The notes below the pieces were generated by a model that saw nothing but the letters and a program-made list of their open reading frames with translations, ran no database searches and was not told the origin of the DNA. Source: an uncultured Alphaproteobacteria bacterium (GTDB taxonomy: Bacteria > Pseudomonadota > Alphaproteobacteria > RF32 > CAG-239). From it: a stretch of 63,531 nucleotides of DNA. A program made the translations under genes and the position numbers. Location of the stretch: positions 1-63,531 of the forward strand of contig CAMOYJ010000001.1 in the NCBI GenBank assembly GCA_946629975.1. The letters run 5' to 3'. Positions 3,406 to 54,300 of this stretch are shown here, piece after piece (position 1 is the stretch's first letter; each line of letters starts with the position of its first letter).

Positions 3406-4386
3406 ATGAAGATAAACGAAGATGAGGCACATTTAAGGGTTGAAATCAGCTCAGGCGGGCAGATGACAGCGCAAATTGAGCCGAAAAGAAAGATTGATGT
3501 TTTGATCGGCGATGCGGCAAAGATGGACTGCCAAAGGGCGATTAATTACATCAAATCAGGCACGGCGGAAATCGACAAAGCTGTTGAAGACGGCATTGAA
3601 AAGATAGAGCAAAAAGTTGAAGGCATGGCAGATGTTGACCTTTCAAATTTATCATTTTTAGGAAGAGCAAAGTTTGATGCAAAGCAAGATGCGATTTCAG
3701 ATTTAGCAACAATCAGAGAGGGCGCTGCTTTGGGGGCAACGGCTGTTCAGCCTACCGATTTAGCAATGGTTGCAACAACAGGTGATTATGATGACCTTTC
3801 TGGAACACCCACACTTGCAAGTGTGGCAACAAGCGGAAGTTATAACGATCTTTCAAACAAGCCAAGCATTCCTGCAGCGCAGGTCAATTCTGACTGGAAC
3901 GCTACATCGGGCGTGGCTCAGATTTTAAACAAACCTTCGCTTGCGGCAGTTGCAACAAGCGGTGCATATGCGGATTTGAGCGGCACGCCTGATTTAAGCG
4001 CAAAAGCAGATACCGACCTTTCAAACGTTTCGGCATCTGATATGACAACAGCAATGGAAGGCTCGAACACTCCCGTTATTGTTGAAACATATAAAAACGG
4101 TGATAACTGGTATCGGGTTTGGTCTGACGGATGGTGCGAGCAACGAATTTGGTGTAATGTGAACGGTGCAACAAATGCTTGGTCTTATAATATCGGTAAC
4201 TTTCAACTCTTAAAACAAATGAAAGATACAACATACACGGTTGTCCTTTGGTCTGATTTGCAACACACAAACAACGGACACGCAGTAACAATAGGAACAA
4301 AAACAACAACAGATTTTAAGCTGAACACATATAACTGTGCTGTTAATGGGCCGGCTATCATATACGGATATATTGCGGAGGAGTAA
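3406..4386 (+). CDS. Phage tail fibre protein with three VATxGxYxDLSxxPxL repeats
   Basis: Three copies of a ~15-aa motif (VATTGDYDDLSGTPTL, VATSGSYNDLSNKPSI, VATSGAYADLSGTPDL) of the kind common in tail fibre proteins. Trp/Asn-rich C-terminal domain. Confidence 0.7.
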   Translation: MKINEDEAHLRVEISSGGQMTAQIEPKRKIDVLIGDAAKMDCQRAINYIKSGTAEIDKAVEDGIEKIEQKVEGMADVDLSNLSFLGRAKFDAKQDAISDLATIREGAALGATAVQPTDLAMVATTGDYDDLSGTPTLASVATSGSYNDLSNKPSIPAAQVNSDWNATSGVAQILNKPSLAAVATSGAYADLSGTPDLSAKADTDLSNVSASDMTTAMEGSNTPVIVETYKNGDNWYRVWSDGWCEQRIWCNVNGATNAWSYNIGNFQLLKQMKDTTYTVVLWSDLQHTNNGHAVTIGTKTTTDFKLNTYNCAVNGPAIIYGYIAEE

Positions 4387-6732: not shown

Positions 6733-7008
6733 TTGACATTTGATGAAAAATCATCCATAATTAAAAACGGATATGAGATTTGCTTGTATCAAGTGCCTTT
6801 AAGGTGCGGAGCTTTAAAACGGCTTATACAGTATGCAGTGATGGATAACACTGTGATAAGTGTTGTTTTTTTATAACACGATTATCCCCGATAAGAGTCG
6901 GGGAGCTTATAACGGATGTTCAAGGTTTTTCCTAAAGGTTATAAGAGTCATTTCGTACTGTATGATTGTTTTACTCTCCGACCGCTCTTTGTAAGGTGCG
7001 GTTTTTTA
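6733..7008 (+). promoter_or_regulatory. Promoter + structured leader + intrinsic terminator (divergent member of a 3-copy leader family)
   Basis: TTGACA-17-CATAAT promoter (6733-6761). Nested helices 6807-6820/6968-6980 and 6826-6834/6955-6963. Hairpin tccccga/tcgggga (6885-6904). accgc/gcggt stem plus T-run at 6981-7007. SD and ATG follow at 7029. Confidence 0.45.
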
Positions 7009-7028
7009 TTTTGGAAGATGAGGGTAAC

Positions 7029-7649
7029 ATGATAAAAATAAAAGAAAACGGCAGAAGTATGGTTGAAATGTTAGGGGTGCTTGCAATTATCGGTGTTTTA
7101 AGCGCCGGTGCTTTGGCAGGTTTTAGTCATGCGATGAAAAAACATAAGATGAACCAATTGATTTCTGACTTAGAAACAATGGTAGAAGGATTATCAGAAT
7201 ATAAAGATGAGTTTGGGCAGCAAGGTAACGGAAATGAACAATTTGTGTTGTCGCAATATGTTAGACGATTTAATTTGCTGCCACAAAATTGGAAGACGGA
7301 TGGATATTATTTTTTTGATCTTTTTAATAACAAAATATTATTTTTTGCAAGAAGTTCGCGCTTAAGTATTGATTATTCCAATACGAGTGAAGTCAAAACA
7401 ATTTGTTCGGATTTAGTCATGGGTTTTGGCAAACCAAACAGCCATGCTTTATACCTTCTTCGCGTATGGCGACAGGCTGACGAAAACGGTGAAAATCAAG
7501 GTAATTCAGAAGTATATTATGGTGATAAAGTTTGCAATGACTCTAAAATCTGTATCAAAGATATGACAGCAACAGATGCGGCAGAAATGTGCCGGACATG
7601 TAATGAGGGCAGAACATGTGTTTTGGTTTTTGAGTTTTTGCCATACTAA
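7029..7649 (+). CDS. Prepilin-type N-terminal cleavage/methylation-domain protein (type IV pilin / pseudopilin-like)
   Basis: MIKIKENG|RSMVEMLGVLAIIGVLSAGALAGF is a class III signal, with Gly at -1, Glu at +5 and a hydrophobic helix. Six Cys in the C-terminal part. The start was moved from 6966 to the ATG at 7029, downstream of the terminator. Confidence 0.65.
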   Translation: MIKIKENGRSMVEMLGVLAIIGVLSAGALAGFSHAMKKHKMNQLISDLETMVEGLSEYKDEFGQQGNGNEQFVLSQYVRRFNLLPQNWKTDGYYFFDLFNNKILFFARSSRLSIDYSNTSEVKTICSDLVMGFGKPNSHALYLLRVWRQADENGENQGNSEVYYGDKVCNDSKICIKDMTATDAAEMCRTCNEGRTCVLVFEFLPY

Positions 7650-17645: not shown

Positions 17646-19463
17646 ATGAGTATGAGAAACATCGCCATTATTGCCCACGTTGACCACGGCAAAACAACCC
17701 TTGTTGACGGGCTTTTGAAACAAAGCGGCACCTTTCGCGACAACCAAAAAGTTGTTGATTGCGTTTTAGACAGCAACGATTTGGAACGTGAGCGCGGTAT
17801 TACGATTTTATCAAAATGCACATCGGTTGAGTGGCGCGGCAATCATATCAATATTGTTGACACCCCCGGACACGCAGACTTTGGCGGTGAAGTGGAGCGC
17901 ATTTTATCTATGGTTGATGGTGTGGTTTTGCTTGTGGATTCTTCAGAAGGACCGATGCCGCAAACAAAGTTCGTTTTGGGCAAGGCCTTAAAAATCGGCT
18001 TGAAACCGATTGTTGTTATCAACAAGGCAGATAAGCCGGATGCACGGCCGGATGCAGTTTTGGATGAAATTTTTGACCTTTTTGTGAGTTTGAATGCCAC
18101 TGATGAACAGCTTGATTTTCCGGTGCTTTATGCTTCAGGTCGAAACGGTTGGGCAGTCAAAGATTTAAAAGATGAGAAAAAAGATTTAACGCCGCTTTTT
18201 GAGCTGATTTTATCATATGTCAGCGAGCCGAAGTGTGAAAAAGACAAGCCGTTTTCAATGCTTGTGACAACATTGGAAGGCGACAAGTTTTTGGGCCGAA
18301 TTTTAACGGGCAAAATTTGGTCCGGCACATTGAAATTAAATGATCCGGTCAAAGTTATCAACGAACACGGCGAGGTTGAAAAAACGCGCATTTCAAAAAT
18401 TTTGGCTTATAAGGGTTTGGAACGTGTGGCGTTAAATGAGGCTCATGCAGGTGATATTGTGGCTGTGGCAGGTGTTGTCAAAGGCACGGTGGCAGACACA
18501 ATTTGTGCTTATGAGGTAGATACGCCAATCAAAGCGCAGCCGATTGATCCGCCGACCCTTGCTATGACCTTTTCAGTCAACGATTCGCCGCTCGCAGGAC
18601 GCGAGGGAGATAAGGTGACCTCACGTATGATTTGGGACCGCTTGGAAAAAGAAGCTGAAAGCAATATTGCACTCAAGATTTCAAAAACAGAGAGAACAGA
18701 TTCTTTTGAAGTGGCAGGCAGAGGCGAGTTGCAGCTCGGTGTGCTGATTGAAACCATGCGCCGCGAAGGTTTTGAACTTTCAATTTCACGTCCGCGTGTG
18801 CTGATGAGAAAAGATGAAAACGGCAACCTTTTAGAGCCTGTTGAAGAAGTTGTTGTTGATGTGGATGAAGAATTTTCAGGTACGGTTGTTGAAAAAATGG
18901 GTTTGCGTCGCGCTGAAATGACAGATATGATACCTTCACAATTGGGCGGCAAAGTTCGTTTGATTTTTCATGCACCGTCACGCGGTTTAATCGGCTATCA
19001 CAGCGAGTTTTTGACCGACACGCGCGGCACAGGTGTGATGAACCGCATTTTCTATGGCTATGAGCCTTATAAAGGCGAAATCGAAGGCAGACGCACGGGT
19101 GTTTTGATTTCATCTGAAAACGGAACGGCTGTGGCTTATGCGCTTTGGAAATTGCAAGACAGAGGGCCGATGTTTGTGGAACACAATTCGCCGGTTTATA
19201 TCGGTATGATTATCGGTGAACACACAAAATCAAACGATATTGAAGTCAATCCGACCAAAACAAAGCAATTGACAAACATTCGCGCTGCCGGCAAAGATGA
19301 AGCCATTGATCTTATTCCGCCGAGAAAGCTCAGCTTGGAACAAGCACTTTCTTATATTGCTGCCGATGAGCTTTTGGAGGTAACGCCGAAATCGCTTCGC
19401 TTGCGCAAAAAGATTTTAGACCCGCTTGCACGTAAACGTGCCAAACCTGAAGTTGAGGGTTAA
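17646..19463 (+). CDS. typA: Translational GTPase TypA/BipA
   Basis: [32 protein letters not shown] and NKADK motifs, at the length typical of BipA. Confidence 0.95.
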
Positions 19464-19874: not shown

Positions 19875-20420
19875 ATGGCTGCTCGTTGGTATGTTGTTAA
19901 TGTTTATTCCGGTTCGGAAAAGAAGGTTGCCGAGTCGCTCAAAGAACAAGCCGTTTTGAAAAAAATGGAAGACAAGATTTTAGATGTTTTGGTGCCGACA
20001 GAAGATGTGATCGAAATCAAAAAGGGCAAAAAAGTCAGCACTGAAAAGAAGTTTTTCCCCGGCTATATCTTAGTTAAAATGGATATGGATGACACAGTTT
20101 GGCACGTTGTGAAAAACACACCGCGTGTGAGCGGATTTTTGGGAACGCGTGACGGTTTGCGCTTAAAACCGCAACCGATCAGCGAAAAAGAAGTTGAACA
20201 AATTATGAAGCAAATGCAAGAAGGCGTTGAACGCCCGCAAACAATTGCAACTTTCGAAGTTGGCGAAAATGTTCGCGTGACCGATGGTCCGTTTGCATCT
20301 TTCGTTGGTGTTGTTGAAGAGGTAGACACAGAAAAAACACGTCTCAAGGTTTCTGTTTCTATTTTCGGTCGATACACACCGGTTGAGTTGGAATTTGCTC
20401 AAGTTGAAAAAGTAAAATAA
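19875..20420 (+). CDS. nusG: Transcription termination/antitermination factor NusG
   Basis: RWYVVNVYSGSEKKV...FPGYILVKM...KOW region (GENVRVTDGPFASFVGVVEEVD). Confidence 0.95.
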   Translation: MAARWYVVNVYSGSEKKVAESLKEQAVLKKMEDKILDVLVPTEDVIEIKKGKKVSTEKKFFPGYILVKMDMDDTVWHVVKNTPRVSGFLGTRDGLRLKPQPISEKEVEQIMKQMQEGVERPQTIATFEVGENVRVTDGPFASFVGVVEEVDTEKTRLKVSVSIFGRYTPVELEFAQVEKVK

Positions 20421-30680: not shown

Positions 30681-30872
30681 TTGATTTTTTTATCTTAAGG
30701 CTTATGATAAAAAGTGCAGCGAGTTGCTGCGGTGTCTAGTAAACACGGTATATCCGAGAATACTCCTCAATGAAGGGGAGTTCTTGAAATAAGCGTATTT
30801 TATGGCGAATAAAAGAGTCTGTTCTCGGACAGTTTACTAGCTCCCCGTTTTGATTTTTCAAAGCGGTTTTTT
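30681..30872 (+). promoter_or_regulatory. Promoter + structured leader + intrinsic terminator (leader family member A)
   Basis: TTGATT-16-TATGAT promoter. Hairpin gcagc-gagtt-gctgc. Nested helices 30736-44/30832-40 and 30753-60/30822-29. Hairpin 30762-68/30775-81. Terminator 30845-30872 (9 bp plus T6) lies 30 nt before the OMP start. Confidence 0.55.
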
Positions 30873-30902
30873 AATTAATATTCTAAAGAAAGGACTCTTC
30901 TC

Positions 30903-48486: not shown

Positions 48487-49554
<1,068 letters not shown>

Positions 49555-49569
49555 AAAAAGGAAAGATAA

Positions 49570-49905
49570 ATGGAAAAAAATGAAATTTTAGAAATTGTTC
49601 AAAAAGTTTTGGATGACAACAAGGCAGAAGATGTTGTTGTGATTGATTTGGAAGGAAAAACATCTATCGCAAACCAAATGGTTGTGGCTTCAGGCACATC
49701 AAATCGCCATGTGGCCTCTATGGCAGATAAATTGATGGAAGCTCTGAAAAAGGCAGGTTTTAAGGCAACGATTGAAGGTGAAGACAAAGCTGATTGGGTT
49801 TTGATAGATGCTTTCGATGTGATTGTGCACATCTTCCGCCCGGAAGTCCGCGAGTTTTATAATTTGGAAAAAATGTGGCAAGCCATCGCCGAAAAAAGAA
49901 AATAA
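49570..49905 (+). CDS. rsfS: Ribosome silencing factor RsfS (Iojap family)
   Basis: ...DLEGKTSIANQMVVASGTSNRHV...DWVLIDAFDVIVHIF..E.REFYNLEKMW signature. Confidence 0.9.
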   Translation: MEKNEILEIVQKVLDDNKAEDVVVIDLEGKTSIANQMVVASGTSNRHVASMADKLMEALKKAGFKATIEGEDKADWVLIDAFDVIVHIFRPEVREFYNLEKMWQAIAEKRK

Positions 49906-49926
49906 ATAAGTTTTTACTTGATTGTC

Positions 49927-49964
49927 TCAGGTTTTCTTTTCAAAAAGAGAACCTGATTTTTTTT
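49927..49964 (+). terminator. Rho-independent terminator
   Basis: tcaggttttc/gagaacctga hairpin plus T8. Confidence 0.75.
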
Positions 49965-49966
49965 GC

Positions 49967-50157
49967 TTTACAAAATCGAAAATATTATGCATAATTAAAA
50001 ATGTAGCCGAGTTGGCTATGGTGTTCCTAAAACATCTTTTAGCACATCACTCCTTAAAAGGGAGTTGTTGAAATAAGGCATTTGCACGAATAAGACAAAC
50101 TGTGTGCTAACAGTTTTTAGGGCTCCCACTTTGGATTTCTTTCAAGGTGGTTTTTTT
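49967..50157 (+). promoter_or_regulatory. Promoter + structured leader + intrinsic terminator (leader family member B)
   Basis: TTTACA-17-CATAAT promoter. Hairpin tagcc-gagtt-ggcta. Nested helices 50026-33/50113-21 and 50039-46/50103-10. Hairpin 50049-53/50061-65. Terminator 50126-50157 (8 bp plus T7) lies 30 nt before the LRR gene start. Confidence 0.55.
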
Positions 50158-50186
50158 GTTGAATAATATAAAATAGGAGAACAAAT

Positions 50187-50993
50187 ATGAAGAGGTTTTT
50201 TTTAAGTTTAATAATAATGGTGAGCCCATTTATTGCAAATGCTGAAATAGCAAGCGGAAATGATTGTGGCAAAGAATGTTCATGGAGCATATCAGATGAT
50301 GGCACTTTAACAATATTAGGCAAAGGAGATATGAAAAACTGGAGTGCCTCTCAAACACCGTGGGCTGCATATGCGTCAAAGGTAAACAGCATTAAGGTTG
50401 GTGAAGGTATTACATCGATTGGCAACTGGGCATTTTTTGTTTTTCATGCATCAGAAATCAGTTTGCCGAATACATTAACTTCTATTGGGGCAAGCGCAAT
50501 TACATGGATGGATAATCTTAAAGAGCTTCACCTTCCAGATTCGCTGCTCTATGTTGGTAATGGTGCATTTTATGGACTTACAGAACTTGAAAATATTGTT
50601 ATCCCAGATTCTGTTATTTCAATCGGTGCTGATGCATTTGGCAGAGATTATAAATTAAAAAGTATTACCATTGGCGATAAAACAATTTTAGAAGGAGATC
50701 CATTTAAAGATCCAACTGACGATAGAGTATATACCGGTGGACAAGCTCAAGGGGGAACGGTTGTTTTTTGCACAGGGCAAATCAGTCAATGTAAAGATAA
50801 TTTTGGAGATTATAGAGATAAAGTTCAAGAGGCAAATAAAAAAACGATTAATGGTGTGACATATGTTTATGATAAAAACGGTAATTTGGTTGTTAAAGAT
50901 GGAAAAAGGTTTGAAAAACGCATTTATACCGTTGAAGAAGCGGCAGCGGTGAGTAAACCGACAGGAAATACTTTCAAACTACGTTACAAATAA
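50187..50993 (+). CDS. Secreted leucine-rich-repeat protein (BspA-type LRR)
   Basis: Signal peptide (…FIANAE). Repeats of the type (I/L)P(D/N)(S/T)(L/V)xxIGxxAF. Confidence 0.7.
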   Translation: MKRFFLSLIIMVSPFIANAEIASGNDCGKECSWSISDDGTLTILGKGDMKNWSASQTPWAAYASKVNSIKVGEGITSIGNWAFFVFHASEISLPNTLTSIGASAITWMDNLKELHLPDSLLYVGNGAFYGLTELENIVIPDSVISIGADAFGRDYKLKSITIGDKTILEGDPFKDPTDDRVYTGGQAQGGTVVFCTGQISQCKDNFGDYRDKVQEANKKTINGVTYVYDKNGNLVVKDGKRFEKRIYTVEEAAAVSKPTGNTFKLRYK

Positions 50994-51064
50994 AATTTTG
51001 CGCCTTGATAAATGTCATTTTGCGATTAAATCTCCTTATCATGTTTTTTTAAGGAGATTTTTTG

Positions 51065-51364
51065 ATGCGATATTTTGTTTTGAATTTGCTTTTTGTTTTA
51101 AGCGCCTGTGCACACACGGTCGAAATTGACGAAGCAAAAGAATATAAATGCGGTGACAAGATTGTGAAAGCCGAATTTTTAGATGATGATTCGGTTATCA
51201 TCAAAATCAACGGCAACAGCACGGTTTTGCATCAAACAGCCTCAGAAAGCGGCACGCGTTATGACAATTCGGATTCTAAAATGACATTGATGCGGCAGGG
51301 CAGAGATACATACCTTTCTGTTGACGGCACAAACTACCCGCTTTGTTACGAAATCGAGAGATAA
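51065..51364 (+). CDS. MliC-family lipoprotein (inhibitor of C-type lysozyme)
   Basis: Lipobox VLSA|C, SESGTRY (the SxSGxxY MliC motif), and conserved Cys positions. The start could be the TTG at 51062. Confidence 0.65.
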   Translation: MRYFVLNLLFVLSACAHTVEIDEAKEYKCGDKIVKAEFLDDDSVIIKINGNSTVLHQTASESGTRYDNSDSKMTLMRQGRDTYLSVDGTNYPLCYEIER

Positions 51365-51391
51365 AAAAGCGCTCATTTGAGCGCTCTTTTC
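51364..51391. terminator. Bidirectional rho-independent terminator
   Basis: agcgctc-attt-gagcgct hairpin flanked by an A-run and a T-run, between convergent genes. Confidence 0.7.
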
Positions 51392-54300
51392 TATTTTGCT
51401 TTGCCGTATTTTTCCGTGATGGTTTGGAAGAGAACATACAAAAGCGGAATGATGAGCAAACCGCCCATTGTGCCGATGAGCATACCCCAGAAAACAGGCA
51501 CGCCGATGGCAACACGGCTTCCTGCGCCGGCGCCTGTGGCCACAATCAAGGGGAGCATACCCAAAATAAAGGTAAATGCGGTCATCAACACGGCTCTGAA
51601 ACGCTCTTTGGTGGCAGTTGTTGCCGCTTTGTCAATCGAGGCGCCTTTGGCGCGTTCATCGCGCGCAAATTCCACAATCAAAATAGCGTTTTTCGCCGCC
51701 AAGCCAACAAGCAAAATCAGACCGAGCTGGGCATAAATGCTGAGCGGTAAGCCTGTGATGAAGATGCCGACAAATGCACCGAGCATAGCAACCAAAACAG
51801 ACATCAAAACCGAAACAGGCAACATCCAGCTTTCGTATTGCGCCACCAAAAACAGATAAGCAAACAACACGGCAAGTGCAATCAAATAGCCCACCTGTCC
51901 GCTGTTTTTCTTTTCTTGCAAACTCATGGTTGACCACTCATAGTTATAGCCATCGGGCAGAACTGAAGCTGCCAAATCTTCCATCGCTTTCATAGCCTGT
52001 CCGCTTGAAACGCCGGGCGCGGTCATAGCTGTGATGGTTGCGGCCGGAAACTGATTGTATCGGTCTAGACTACGTGGCGCTTGAATCATTTCAATTTTAA
52101 TCAAACTTCCTAAAGGCACCATATTGCCGTTGTTTGAGGGAACATGGATTTTGCGGATGCTGTCAATATCTTTACGATATGGCCAATCTGCCTGAACCAT
52201 GACCTTGTTGACCTGTGTGCCGATGTTGATGTCGTTCACATAGCCCGAGCCGAGATAGTTTTGCAAAACCGAATAAATGGAAGAGACGGAAACATTCATC
52301 ACTTCGGCTTTTTCTTTGTCTATCTCAATATGAGCGTGCGGGGTGGCAGCCGTAAAAGTTGAAAAGGCATACATAATTTCAGGCAAAGCGTTCACCTTTG
52401 CAACAAAACTTTTGGTCACGGTCTCGAGCAGCTTTGGATCTGTTGAATCAATAGACTGCAGCCTAAAGTCCATACCGCCGGTGTTGCCCAAACCGGGAAT
52501 AGCCGGAAATTCAAAAAGGTTGATGTCGGCCTCAGGGATGTTTGCAACCCGTGCCTTAATGCGGTTTAAAATGTTGGTTGAATATTCGGATTTTCCTTTT
52601 CTTTGATCCCACGGTTTTAAGTGAACAACGGCAATACCCACGTTTTCGCCTTGTCCGGAGAGCATCGAAAAGCCGATAATATCCATCACCGATTCAACAC
52701 TTTTTTCGGCCTTTGCAAGCGGGATAAACTCTTTGATGACTTCATCTGTTCGAGGCTGTGTTGCGCCTTCCGGAAGCTGAATATTAGTCACAATCACACC
52801 TTGGTCTTCAGCCGGAATAAAGCTCGTGTGGCTCACTTTGAAGAACAACGCATTAAAGACAAACAAAAGCCCTAAAATGAGCGCAATAACGCTCACTTTG
52901 CGCGCAATATATCCGACAACGGCCAAATATTTGTTGCGACTCTTATCCACAATCTTGTTAAACCACAAAAGCGGTCCATGTGTTGCCGGTTTTAAAGGCC
53001 TTAAAATAGTTGCACACAAAGCAGGCGATAATGTCAAAGCATTAAGCGATGAAAACGACACGGCAAATGAAATGGAAATCGCAAATTGCTGATAAATTTT
53101 GCCGGTAATGCCGCCGATAAAAGCAATCGGCACAAAAATGGCAAGCAACACCAACGTTGTGGCAATAATGGCAGATGAAACCTGTTCCATAGCTTTAACG
53201 GCAGCATCATGCGGCGAAAGTTTTTCTTGTTCCATCAAGGTCAAAACGCGCTCCACCACCACAATGGCATCATCAACCACCAAACCGATTGCAAGCACCA
53301 AACCGAACAATGTCAAAATATTTAAGCTGTATCCAAATGCAAGCATCACCGCAAAGGTTGCTAAAAGCGAAACAGGAATGGTGATAGACGGCACAAGCGT
53401 TGAACGCCAGTCTTGCAAAAAGATATAACAAACGGCAACCACCAAAACAAAGGTCATCAAAAGCGTTTCAACAACTTCTTTGATGGAGGCTTTAATATAG
53501 TCCGTTGCATCAAAGAAAACTTCAATTGTGAAATCTTCAGGATAAAATTGTTCCAACCGTTTGAGCTCGGCCCTGACGGCTTTCATGGCCTGAATGGCAT
53601 TTGCGCCTGAGAGCGTATTAAGCCCGATTGAAACAGAGGTTGCACCATCAATCTCAGATTTGAAAACATAGTTTTCAGAGCCGATTTCAACGCGTGCAAT
53701 GTCTTTTAAGCGCACAAGCCCGCCGTCTTCTTCGGTGCGGACGATAATGTTTTCAAAATCTTTGGCTTCATTCAAACGGCCTTGCGTTTCCAAAGTATAA
53801 ACCATTTGCTGACCGTCATCACCGGGCATTGACCCGACCGAACCCAAAGAAGGCTGGAAGTTTTGGCTTGAAATGGCGGCTCTAACGCTTGAAACAGGAA
53901 TGTTCAACGCTGCAATTTTATCAGCATCGAGCCAAACACGCATTGAAAGCGGTGCGGCGTAAACGCTTACTTCACCCACACCGTAAAGACGCGCCAAGTT
54001 GTTTTTGACGTTGTTTTCAATATAGTTACTCATAAAGCTGCGGTCGTGTGTGCCATTTGGCGAACGGGCAACCAAAAAGCCCAAAATATCAGACGAGCGG
54101 CGTTTGACCGAAACACCATATTGCTGAACTTCAGTCGGCAACTTGTTCATGGCCTGTTGAACGCGGTTTTGAACTTTCACTTGCGCCATATCCGGATCCG
54201 TGCCAACCTCAAAGCTGACCGCTAAGCGATAAGAACCGGTGTTTGATGAGGTAGATGACATATAAAGCATATCTTCCACACCGTTGACTTCTTGCTCAAT

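What the first reader, a model, noticed from the sequence alone, without database searches (positions are those of the whole stretch)
49967..50186. Leader family member B: same fold as member A with compensatory helix changes, upstream of a secreted LRR protein
The promoter is TTTACA(49967)-17 nt-CATAAT(49990). Every helix of member A is present, but with different sequence. The apical hairpin is tagcc-GAGTT-ggcta (50004-18), against gcagc-GAGTT-gctgc in A, so the loop is identical and the stem differs. P1 is cctaaaac (50026-33) / gtttttagg (50113-21), against ctagtaaac/gtttactag. P2 is ttagcaca (50039-46) / tgtgctaa (50103-10), against tccgagaa/ttctcgga. P3 is actcc (50049-53) / ggagt (50061-65). 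The terminator is ccactttg/caaggtgg plus T7 (50126-50157), against a different stem sequence in A. The unpaired elements are conserved in sequence and order: GGTG (50020-23), TTGAAATAAG (50068-77), CGAATAA (50087-93) and CTCC (50123-26). Stems that covary while loops and junctions stay conserved are the hallmark of a functional structured RNA rather than a duplicated DNA segment. In all three members the 5' GGTG-containing segment resembles the 3' arm of the terminator (gcggt in A, ggtgg in B, aaggtgcgg in C). A switch between alternative pairings is therefore conceivable, but this is my inference only.
Basis: partly seen in the sequence, partly recalled or inferred. Interest (0 to 1): 0.72.

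Follow-up and report, generated by a model that had tools for sequence, protein, structure and literature searches.

The report
New structured leader RNA before surface-protein genes
A roughly 155-base folded RNA with its own promoter and a built-in transcription stop signal sits in front of a secreted leucine-rich-repeat protein gene; it belongs to a previously undescribed, multi-copy RNA family that precedes surface-protein genes in uncultured gut and rumen Alphaproteobacteria and probably decides whether those genes are transcribed.

Summary
With 22 more copies found in other gut and rumen Alphaproteobacteria genomes, the fold is supported by heavy covariation: 98% of cells are paired and 22 of 31 core pairs show compensatory changes.

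The anatomy is promoter, 5' hairpin, GGUGU, P1, P2, a three-way junction (P3 hairpin and a P5/P4 arm with invariant GA..UAAG / CGAAUAA strands), CUCC, intrinsic terminator, ribosome-binding site, gene.

No Rfam 15 family matches. All copies lie directly upstream of, and co-oriented with, genes. These are almost all for BspA-type LRR proteins, pilin-like proteins or outer-membrane barrels.

Best reading: a cis-acting transcription attenuator, a riboswitch-like or protein-controlled leader, that terminates by default. The sensed signal is unknown.

Two claims fail:
- "Member C" is not detectably a member. It founds a second, longer leader family.
- The proposed GGUG/terminator switch is no better than shuffled sequence in this family, although it fits C.

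A better switch candidate is pairing between the P3 3' arm and the CUCC tail that overlaps the terminator base.

The parts
49927..49964 (+). Intrinsic terminator of the upstream rsfS gene (13-bp stem plus T8). It insulates the leader unit from read-through.
   Evidence: RsfS is assigned by Pfam. Other family members also have an upstream U-tract abutting their -35 box.
49967..49995 (+). Sigma-70-type promoter of member B: TTTACA (49967-72), 17 nt, CATAAT (49990-95). The transcription start is inferred near 50000-50003.
   Evidence: 10/12 match, the only + strand site in 2 kb. An equivalent promoter lies at the same distance in all members. The start site is inferred, not shown.
50003..50019 (+). 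H0, the 5'-terminal hairpin: stem GUAGCC / GGCUAU, loop GAGUU. The sequence varies across the family; only the hairpin is conserved.
   Evidence: helix 1: 7 of 9 pairs show changes on both sides and 100% of cells are paired.
50020..50024 (+). Invariant GGUGU. It may close the domain by pairing with the 3' CUCC (G-C, G-C, U.U, G-C), a helix called P0 here.
   Evidence: Invariant in 22 of 22 distinct members. RNAfold predicts the P0 pairing. No covariation is possible. The analogous GGRG:CUCC helix is predicted in the type II family.
50025..50033 (+). P1 5' arm (UCCUAAAAC)
   Evidence: It pairs with 50113-50122. helix 1: 7 of 9 pairs compensatory, 100% paired.
50039..50046 (+). P2 5' arm (UUAGCACA)
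   Evidence: It pairs with 50103-50110. helix 2: 7 of 8 pairs compensatory. More than 10 different arm sequences occur.
50049..50065 (+). P3 hairpin: ACUCCUU / AAA / AGGGAGU, with an invariant CUCC/GGAG(U) base.
   Evidence: helix 3: 96% paired, 4 invariant pairs, 1 compensatory pair.
50066..50069 (+).
   Evidence: It pairs with GACA 50094-97. C-G/G-C swap. helix 4: 4 of 4 pairs compensatory. Arm pairs seen include UCUU/AAGA, AAGA/UCUU and GAAC/GUUC.
50070..50077 (+). Conserved internal-loop strand GAAAUAAG (family consensus GA.aUAAG).
   Evidence: Members found without the sequence pattern show GAGAUAAG, GAUAUAAG and GAACUAAG.
50078..50086 (+).
   Evidence: helix 5: 3 of 3 pairs compensatory. 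Only 2 bp form in B.
50087..50093 (+). Conserved internal-loop strand CGAAUAA.
   Evidence: Invariant in 22 of 22 distinct members, including 6 found by the covariance model without any sequence pattern.
50094..50097 (+). P5 3' arm (GACA)
   Evidence: helix 4.
50100..50113 (+). Invariant CUG (50100-02), P2 3' arm (50103-10) and invariant CAG (50111-13). The G of CAG closes P1.
50113..50122 (+). P1 3' arm (GUUUUUAGGG, with one bulged U).
50123..50128 (+). Invariant CUCC plus the two following bases (the 'tail'). It overlaps the first bases of the terminator stem. It is complementary to the P3 3' arm (50060-66 with 50121-27) and is the candidate switching segment.
   Evidence: 95.8% of cells paired.: -12.9 versus -5.5 kcal/mol for shuffled sequence; the pair just outside GGAG/CUCC is G-C in 13 members and A-U in 9. 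The function is inferred.
50126..50157 (+). Intrinsic terminator: CCACUUUGGA / UUCAAGGUGG, 5-nt loop, U7.
   Evidence: A terminator is present in every member with enough sequence. helix 7: 8 of 14 pairs compensatory.
50175..50993 (+). Ribosome-binding site AGGAG (50175-79) and ORF 50187-50993: a 268-aa BspA-type LRR protein with an N-terminal signal-peptide-like sequence.
   Evidence: and Pfam LRR_5, E = 5.5e-20. There is no promoter-like site between the terminator and the ATG.
30681..30872 (+). Member A of the same family. Promoter TTGATT 30681-86 / TATGAT 30703-08, H0 30716-30, core 30731-30844, terminator 30845-66 plus U6. It lies upstream of an outer-membrane beta-barrel gene (30903).
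   Evidence: 108 bits.
6733..7007 (+). 'Member C'. It is not a detectable member. It is the founder of a second, about 245-nt leader family (type II) upstream of a pilin-like gene (ATG 7029).
   Evidence: 13 bits, E = 0.66; z = -6.3; three homologues, E 1e-22 to 1e-33.

Best explanation
Member B is the 5' leader of the LRR-protein mRNA. It works in cis as a transcription attenuator.

Transcription starts at its own promoter, near position 50002. The first 125 or so nucleotides fold into a conserved multi-helix domain:
- a 5' hairpin;
- GGUGU, possibly paired with CUCC;
- P1 and P2;
- a three-way junction carrying the P3 hairpin and a P5/P4 arm.

The two invariant A-rich strands of the P5/P4 arm look like a tertiary-contact or binding module. 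Immediately after the domain lies a strong intrinsic terminator, and the gene's ribosome-binding site and start codon follow within 30 nt.

By default the domain and the terminator both form, and transcription stops at about 50157. The gene is expressed only when a trans-acting signal lets RNA polymerase read through. That signal may be a small-molecule ligand, as in a riboswitch, or an RNA-binding protein. Its identity is unknown.

The most likely switching element is the CUCC tail. It can leave the terminator base and pair with the 3' arm of P3 (GGAGUU), displacing the P3 5' arm. This removes the G-C pairs next to the U-tract that termination needs.

The same leader precedes dozens of surface-protein genes per genome, so it would set the expression of a surface-protein regulon.

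Shown: the fold, the family, the terminator and the gene association. Inferred: cis action, default termination, the P3/tail swap and the existence of a ligand.
For: **Fold.** On a hand alignment, 99.2% of cells are paired, 33 of 54 pairs are compensatory, and the covariation score is 0.586 versus 0.206 shuffled and 0.05-0.09 slid. On the model-based alignment of 22 distinct sequences, 98.2% are paired, 22 of 31 pairs are compensatory, and the score is 0.762 versus 0.233 shuffled. Six members were found by the model without any sequence pattern.

**Cis role.** All 23 members with readable flanks lie directly upstream of, and co-oriented with, an ORF. The start codon is about 20-35 nt after the U-tract (93 nt in one case), preceded by a ribosome-binding site. 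No promoter-like site lies between terminator and gene in B. The unit is insulated by an upstream terminator.

**Terminator.** One is present in every member with enough sequence.

**Default termination.** When transcripts are folded up to the terminator loop, the domain folds and the terminator 5' arm stays unpaired in 15 of 17.

**Switch candidate.** The duplex between the P3 3' arm and the tail averages -12.9 kcal/mol, versus -5.5 for shuffled sequence, in 23 of 23 members. The flanking pair is G-C in 13 and A-U in 9. The same complementarity exists in the unrelated-sequence type II leaders (CGGGGAG: CUCUCCG; read).

**Regulon.** Downstream genes are LRR_5 in 13 cases, pilin-like in 5, outer-membrane barrel in 4 and hexapeptide transferase in 1.
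Against: - No transcript data and no ligand or protein candidate.
- The aptamer-like domain is very stable on its own. In nested-structure energy models the P3/tail state is 4-15 kcal/mol worse, because it crosses P1 and P2. It needs either a pseudoknotted geometry or a factor that opens P3.
- The P3/tail covariation rests on one strongly and one weakly covarying pair, and on perhaps 3-4 independent evolutionary changes.
- In the type II leaders the tail segment abuts the terminator stem rather than overlapping it.
- The invariance of GGUGU, CUCC, CUG and CAG gives no covariation evidence for any of their proposed pairings.
- The terminator could be constitutive, in which case the RNA would be a stand-alone product.
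Confidence: 0.68

Rival explanations
1. It is a stand-alone, multi-copy trans-acting small RNA of about 155 nt. It is made from its own promoter and ended by its own terminator. Its single-stranded CU-rich stretch (GCUCC[C/U]C) just before the terminator pairs with ribosome-binding sites of target mRNAs. Its position upstream of surface-protein genes would be incidental, or would reflect dual use of a prematurely terminated leader.
For: - It has its own promoter and a strong terminator.
- The terminated product is the predicted default.
- The invariant CUCC(UCC) resembles an anti-Shine-Dalgarno seed and sits where CU-rich seeds sit in some Gram-positive multi-copy sRNAs. That comparison is from my own knowledge of LhrC and RsaE, not tested here.
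- Several copies occur per genome.
Against: - All 23 copies with readable flanks are co-oriented with, and within about 20-95 nt of, a downstream start codon. In B no promoter-like site lies in between. That is not expected for independent sRNA genes.
- No Hfq or CsrA homologue was seen in 343 kb of sampled sequence (weak, because the sample is small).
- The CUCC is predicted to be paired with GGUG in the folded domain.
Confidence: 0.12
2. It is a constitutive 5' UTR module with no sensing. The structured domain stabilises or processes the mRNA, for example through 5' hairpin protection. A leaky terminator simply sets a low, fixed expression level and insulates each surface-protein gene.
For: - The 5'-terminal hairpin is conserved as a structure only (helix 1).
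- The units are insulated by terminators on both sides.
- No convincing thermodynamic alternative fold was found.
Against: - A 110-nt domain with five covarying helices and about 35 invariant unpaired nucleotides is far more than stabilisation or insulation needs.
- Terminator stems of 6-14 bp with U5-U8 tracts are not obviously leaky.
- The conserved P3/tail complementarity is left unexplained.
Confidence: 0.1
3. It is a self-cleaving or otherwise catalytic RNA located in the 5' UTR.
For: It has a complex junction with many invariant unpaired nucleotides and occurs in many copies per genome. Those properties are shared with small ribozyme classes. This is my own knowledge, not tested.
Against: No match to any ribozyme family in Rfam 15, even at E up to 10. 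The invariant terminator and gene linkage point to transcription control.
Confidence: 0.03
4. It is a DNA-level repeat, such as a duplicated promoter cassette, a recombination site or a mobile element remnant, and not a functional RNA.
For: It is multi-copy and associated with variable surface-protein gene families. One truncated copy exists (L011).
Against: Compensatory double changes occur in 22 of 31 core pairs, with 98% pairing retained across copies whose helices share no sequence. Controls with the pairing partner slid along the alignment collapse to about 45% pairing. No terminal repeats or transposase association were seen.
Confidence: 0.02

Closest known systems
Transcription-terminating riboswitches, in particular the c-di-GMP-I (GEMM-I, RF01051) and c-di-GMP-II (RF01786) classes
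   Same: - A conserved multi-helix aptamer-like domain is followed at once by an intrinsic terminator and then the gene.
- Many copies occur per genome.
- The associated genes are pilins, adhesins and outer-membrane proteins. This is the gene set that gave GEMM its name and that c-di-GMP-II controls in Clostridioides difficile (my own knowledge).
   Different: - No sequence or structure match to these or any other Rfam 15 model.
- The helix layout and invariant nucleotides differ.
- No antiterminator of the usual P1-3'-strand type.
- No GGDEF, EAL or PilZ gene was seen in 343 kb sampled (weak).
- The ligand is unknown.
Protein-dependent antitermination leaders (BglG/SacY RAT, ANTAR, PyrR binding site RF00515, LoaP-type leaders)
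   Same: A leader RNA element is placed just before an intrinsic terminator, and read-through requires a trans factor. The default state is termination.
   Different: - Those elements are single or paired small hairpins of about 30 nt that overlap the terminator. This element is a 110-nt junctioned domain.
- PyrR scores only 21-24 bits against a cut-off of 54, and mostly on the terminators.
- No linked regulator gene lies next to any copy.
Type II leader of the same genomes (window 6766-7012, 'member C')
   Same: - Same genomes and the same downstream gene classes (pilin-like, LRR, secreted).
- Same layout: promoter, 5' hairpin, GG(U/C)G, long closing helices, a C-rich/G-rich P3 hairpin followed by a covarying helix, a CUCC tail and a terminator.
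- The same complementarity between the P3 3' arm and the tail.
   Different: - About 90 nt longer, with two extra hairpins.
- Different conserved loop sequences (GGAUGUUCA..CCUAAAGG instead of GA.AUAAG / CGAAUAA).
- Not detected by the type I covariance model or HMM.
- It has a clear 5' copy of the terminator 3' arm that can act as an antiterminator.
UAA/GAN internal-loop motif (a recurrent RNA tertiary module)
   Same: The invariant internal loop has GA(N) and UAA on both strands (GA.A-UAA-G opposite C-GAA-UAA), arranged so that each GAN faces a UAA. This is a tandem, pseudo-symmetric version of that motif.
   Different: This is a resemblance recalled from memory only.
Multi-copy CU-rich sRNAs (LhrC1-5 of Listeria, RsaE, alpha-proteobacterial alpha-r14/cuckoo RNAs)
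   Same: Several copies occur per genome, and a C/U-rich anti-Shine-Dalgarno-like stretch lies next to the terminator. LhrC targets are surface proteins (my own knowledge).
   Different: Those are independent genes acting in trans. This element is always directly upstream of, and co-oriented with, a gene. There is no Rfam match.

Membership tests
Any Rfam 15 family (4227 models) | Covariance-model score at or above the family's gathering threshold | tested here: not met
   The whole window gives only a tRNA. Nine other members give no hit. At E up to 10, only scattered sub-threshold hits appear, mostly on terminators, and none recurs over the element.
Riboswitch (generic definition) | Conserved structured domain in a 5' UTR, supported by covariation, with conserved unpaired nucleotides | tested here: met
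Riboswitch (generic definition) | Expression platform adjacent to the aptamer (an intrinsic terminator or sequestration of the ribosome-binding site) | tested here: met
   An intrinsic terminator starts at or within 1-2 nt of the domain's 3' CUCC in all members with enough sequence.
Riboswitch (generic definition) | Mutually exclusive alternative pairing that links the aptamer state to the terminator | tested here: inconclusive
- The P3-3'arm/tail pairing is conserved and partly covaries. It is energetically unfavourable in nested models and overlaps only the terminator's first 1-3 bases.
Riboswitch (generic definition) | Direct, selective binding of a small-molecule ligand without protein | not testable with these tools
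   This needs in-line probing, ITC or transcription assays. The gene context (surface proteins) does not name a metabolite.
Intrinsic (Rho-independent) terminator | G+C-containing stem-loop followed directly by a U-tract | tested here: met
   In B: a 10-bp stem at 50126-50150 plus U7. It is a family-wide feature with 8 of 14 stem pairs compensatory.
Trans-acting sRNA gene | Independent transcription unit whose position and orientation are not tied to the downstream gene | tested here: not met
   All 23 copies with readable flanks are co-oriented with, and immediately upstream of, an ORF.
PyrR binding site (RF00515) and T-box (RF00230) | Model score. For T-box, also a specifier loop and the T-box sequence. 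| tested here: not met
   PyrR scores 21-24 bits against a cut-off of 54. T-box is not reported even at E up to 10.
Type I leader family defined here (model R2) | Score with model R2, and presence of GGUGU, P1, P2, P3 (CUCC/GGAG), P5, GA.AUAAG, P4, CGAAUAA, CUG, CAG, CUCC and a terminator | tested here: met
   B scores 99.2 bits, E about 2e-22, with full-length model coverage. All listed elements are present. C scores 13 bits, so it does not meet this test.

The most novel reading that the evidence does not exclude
This is a new riboswitch class, or another ligand-sensing RNA. It may occur at several dozen copies per genome, extrapolating from 2 copies in this 63.5-kb window. It would gate transcription of most BspA-type LRR adhesins, pilin-like proteins and outer-membrane barrels in an uncultured order of gut and rumen Alphaproteobacteria, in response to a single unknown signal such as a second messenger or a host- or diet-derived molecule. 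A sister class, type II, would do the same for further genes. If so, the whole surface-protein repertoire of these bacteria is under direct RNA-level control.
Probability: 0.3. Interest if true: 0.85.

Novelty: new variant of a known kind. Interest (0 to 1): 0.68.

Why it matters
These Alphaproteobacteria are common in human gut and ruminant samples, but I know of no cultured representative. Nothing was found here about how they control the adhesin-like, pilin-like and porin-like proteins that face the host.

A single leader RNA repeated in front of these genes gives a direct handle on that regulon:
- The covariance model can list the regulon in any genome.
- The RNA can be made in vitro and screened for ligands or binding proteins without culturing the organism.

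For RNA biology it adds a well-supported orphan motif, with five covarying helices and about 35 invariant nucleotides. It has an unusual expression platform, and a sister family (type II) serves the same gene classes. That makes a natural comparison for how attenuators evolve.

Tried and rejected
**1. Known RNA family.** Rfam at gathering threshold on the window and on nine other members, and at E up to 10, gave nothing.

**2. C as a third member.** nhmmer with A, B, A+B and the 11-sequence HMM did not find it. Model R2 with filters off gave 13 bits. Rejected as a member. C was then shown to be a separate family.

**3. A candidate 'C' at 18726 from the pattern GAGTT..GGTG.** It lies inside a long ORF. 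Rejected.

Rejected for this family. In B itself, CUAUGGUG (50016-23) can pair with CACUUUGG (50127-34) at 7 of 8 positions, but this is not conserved.

**5. Antiterminator by thermodynamics.** Transcripts truncated before the terminator 3' arm leave the 5' arm unpaired. Forcing the P3/tail helix costs 4-15 kcal/mol in nested models.

**6. MAFFT plus RNAalifold on unpadded sequences.** P1, P3 and P5 were recovered. P2, H0 and P4 were lost to misalignment. Fixed with a hand alignment padded with N and then with Infernal re-alignment.

**7. c-di-GMP hypothesis.** tblastn with consensus GGDEF, EAL, PilZ, CdaA, RelA/SpoT, Hfq and CsrA queries against 343 kb of family loci found only the housekeeping NusG. 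This is weak negative evidence.

**8. Literature.**
- Four full-text searches and term look-ups in three large motif-discovery papers (PMC5737381, PMC11109978, PMC8040213) found no matching motif.
- The PMC8040213 supplementary tables listed only LRR_5-linked candidates from Prevotella and Bacteroidales.
- Those tables were truncated, so absence there is not proof.

**9. Metagenome pattern scan.** Only 6 of 16 hits were real. The rest were chance matches.
Full report
**Observation**

Every coordinate in the finding matches the sequence. The promoter TTTACA(49967)-17-CATAAT(49990) is the only + strand sigma-70-like site in 49500-51500. The terminator at 50126-50150 plus T7 is found by the scan.

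RNAfold on 49998-50160 alone reproduces the 5' hairpin, P1, P2, P3 and the terminator. Member A (30712-30875) folds the same way (z = -4.98). A and B find each other with nhmmer at E = 7e-9 and 6.5e-8, and find nothing else in the window.

**Origin and relatives**

The LRR protein is encoded on contigs of an uncultured Alphaproteobacteria MAG (GCA_003542415.1) and on two metagenome-derived assemblies (ENA, Logan).
- A pattern scan of one genome per species (GGAGTNNTTGAAATAAG..CGAATAA) gave 11 hits, all in rumen or gut Alphaproteobacteria MAGs, plus one chance hit.
- A relaxed pattern on metagenomes gave 6 more real members.
- These were selected by sequence pattern. I therefore also fetched contigs of LRR-protein homologues and searched them with a covariance model. 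This gave 6 further members found without a pattern.

In total there are 24 matches, 22 of them distinct.

**Structure**

All pattern-derived sequences parse into the same order of elements:
1. Promoter.
2. 5' hairpin H0, variable in sequence.
3. Invariant GGUGU.
4. P1 (9 bp), then CA(C/U) and a variable linker.
5. P2 (7-8 bp).
6. P3 hairpin with an invariant CUCC/GGAGU base.
7. P5 (4 bp), then GA.aUAAG, the P4 mini-hairpin, CGAAUAA, and the P5 3' arm.
8. Two variable bases, then CUG, the P2 3' arm, CAG, the P1 3' arm, and (G)CUCC.
9. Intrinsic terminator with U5-8, then a ribosome-binding site and the start codon.

MAFFT misaligned the variable arms. I therefore made a hand alignment padded with N, which MAFFT left gapless.
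- On it, 99.2% of 839 cells are standard pairs and 33 of 54 pairs have changes on both sides.
- The covariation score is 0.586, against 0.206 for shuffles (0 of 500 reach it) and 0.05-0.09 when partners are slid by 1-3 columns.
- That alignment was fitted by eye and by a helix finder, so it leans towards the structure.

An independent Infernal alignment from models R1 and R2 gives 98.2% paired, 22 of 31 pairs compensatory, and a score of 0.762 versus 0.233.
Its arm pairs include UCUU/AAGA, UGUU/AACA, UUCU/AGAA, UGUC/GGCA, AGAU/GUCU, AAGA/UCUU and GAAC/GUUC.
- The truly invariant nucleotides in 22 distinct sequences are GGUGU, CA, CUCCU, GGAGU, GA..UAAG, CGAAUAA, CUG, CAGU and CUCC.
- CGAAUAA stays invariant in the pattern-free members, while GAAAUAAG varies at positions 3-4.

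**Known or new**

Rfam 15 has nothing.
- At gathering score the window gives only a tRNA, and nine other members give no hit.
- At E up to 10 there are only scattered sub-threshold hits, mostly on terminators, and none recurs over the element.
- Full-text searches and three large motif-discovery papers gave no match. The supplementary tables of PMC8040213 were only partly readable, so an unnamed entry there cannot be excluded.

**Member C**

The 247-nt RNA at 6766-7012 folds very stably (z = -6.3) and has a similar layout. It is not detected by the HMMs or by model R2 with filters off (13 bits, E = 0.66).

It has its own homologues at L034:9729-9972, L036:9673-9925 and L032:4853-5098 (E 1e-22 to 1e-33). 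These lie upstream of two LRR genes and a secreted protein. Twenty of 68 predicted pairs are compensatory in only four sequences.

It is therefore a second leader family (type II) serving the same gene classes. In type II, the 5' segment GUGCCUU..AAGGYGCGG is a copy of the terminator 3' arm, and RNAalifold pairs it with the terminator arms.

**Mechanism**

*Cis action.* All 23 copies with readable flanks are co-oriented with an ORF. Its start codon lies about 20-35 nt after the U-tract (93 nt in one case), preceded by a ribosome-binding site. In B no promoter-like site lies between the terminator and the ATG. An upstream terminator abuts the -35 box in B and in the other copies examined. Expression of the gene therefore requires read-through of the leader's terminator. 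This last step is inference.

*Default state.* Folding each transcript up to the terminator loop leaves the terminator 5' arm unpaired and the domain folded in 15 of 17. Termination is therefore the predicted default.

Shuffled controls give -5.4. This is not supported for this family.

*An alternative switch.* The P3 3' arm (two variable bases, then GGAGUU) is complementary to the last two bases of P1 plus CUCC plus the next two bases in all members.
- The mean duplex energy is -12.9 kcal/mol versus -5.5 shuffled, and 95.8% of cells are paired.
- The pair just outside GGAG/CUCC is G-C in 13 members and A-U in 9, with one exception explained by a bulge. The partner of that base inside P3 is always U.
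- Those tail bases are also the first bases of the terminator stem. When the first is U, the terminator 3' arm ends in A in most lineages.
- The tail thus has two covarying partners, as expected for a switching segment. Losing the stem pairs next to the U-tract should weaken termination (established knowledge of intrinsic terminators).

*Caveats.*
- This helix crosses P1 and P2, and in nested energy models it costs 4-15 kcal/mol.
- It overlaps only 1-3 terminator bases.
- The covariation probably reflects few independent events.

It is the best candidate, not a demonstrated mechanism.

*Other notes on the fold.* The four invariant segments GGUGU, ACUCC, GGAGU and GCUCC are mutually compatible in two pairing schemes. 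That would explain their invariance. The invariant internal loop (GA.A-UAA-G opposite C-GAA-UAA) looks like a tandem UAA/GAN motif. This is from memory and untested.

**What is regulated**

| Downstream gene | Copies |
|---|---|
| BspA-type LRR_5 secreted protein | 13 |
| Pilin-like protein with the invariant GRSMVEMLGVLAIIG segment | 5 |
| Outer-membrane beta-barrel | 4 |
| Hexapeptide transferase | 1 |
| Contig end, gene unknown | 1 |

Sources. The window has two type I and one type II leader in 63.5 kb. One 21-kb locus has three type I and one type II. This suggests dozens per genome.

**The signal**

The signal is unknown. The gene set recalls c-di-GMP riboswitch regulons. However, no GGDEF, EAL or PilZ gene appears in 343 kb of sampled loci (weak evidence), and the RNA does not resemble those classes.

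**Verdict**

The core interpretation, a functional structured leader RNA, is strongly supported and extended. The third member and the proposed switch are not supported.

The element is a new family of a known kind: a riboswitch-like or protein-dependent transcription attenuator. Interest is moderately high because the structure is unusually well supported, the family is multi-copy, it controls the surface-protein repertoire of an uncultured host-associated lineage, and a sister family exists.

Noticed in passing
window 6733-7007 (+); L034:9729-9972; L036:9673-9925; L032:4853-5098: A second structured leader family (type II, about 245 nt) with its own promoter and terminator lies upstream of a pilin-like gene, two LRR genes and a secreted protein. 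Its 5' segment AAGG(U/C)GCGG repeats the terminator 3' arm, and RNAalifold pairs it with the terminator arms, an antiterminator design. Twenty of 68 pairs are compensatory in four sequences. There is no Rfam hit at gathering score in the window.
   Followed up: partly
window 50913-50990 (C-terminus of the LRR protein); also L008, L012, L029 and L032:5152-5985: The secreted proteins downstream of both leader types share an extreme C-terminal motif of about 25 residues, KRIYT[VI][ED]EA..V....N....[RK]Y[RK]. One of them is a non-LRR protein. It may be a common sorting or anchoring signal. It was not recognised by Pfam.
   Followed up: no
window 7029-7649; L006, L007, L009, L026, L034:15447-16286: There is a family of pilin-like proteins with a nearly invariant N-terminal segment, GRSMVEMLGVLAIIG(V/L)LS, and otherwise divergent, cysteine-containing bodies. 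Several paralogues occur per genome, each behind a leader. Pfam N_methyl is only sub-threshold (16.6 bits versus 21.2).
   Followed up: no
L011:133-247 (-); L018:1183-1233 (-): Degenerate copies of the type I leader. L011 keeps GGUGU through CAG but has lost the P1 3' arm, the CUCC and the terminator (38-54 bits). L018 has a second fragment with GGUGU, a P1-like arm and ACUCCCC only. Leaders seem to decay as well as duplicate.
   Followed up: partly
window 49927-49972 and the equivalent position in L032, L034 and L036 copies: The U-tract of the preceding gene's terminator runs directly into the leader's -35 box (TTTTTTGTTTGAC and the like). Each surface-protein gene is therefore a tightly insulated module: terminator, promoter, leader, terminator, gene.
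   Followed up: partly
all fetched Alphaproteobacteria loci (343 kb in all): tblastn with consensus GGDEF, EAL, PilZ, CdaA, RelA/SpoT, Hfq and CsrA sequences found none of them. Only the housekeeping NusG (window 19875-20420) was found. The sample is small, but it hints at a reduced signalling repertoire.
   Followed up: partly
L038:1020-1210 and 3570-3665: Two LRR_5 genes on this contig carry neither leader type. Instead they share a short upstream sequence (GATAAAAAAATRTGGTAYAATAAAAAGGTTRTTTGGGTG), apparently a plain promoter region. Not all LRR genes in these genomes are under leader control.
   Followed up: no
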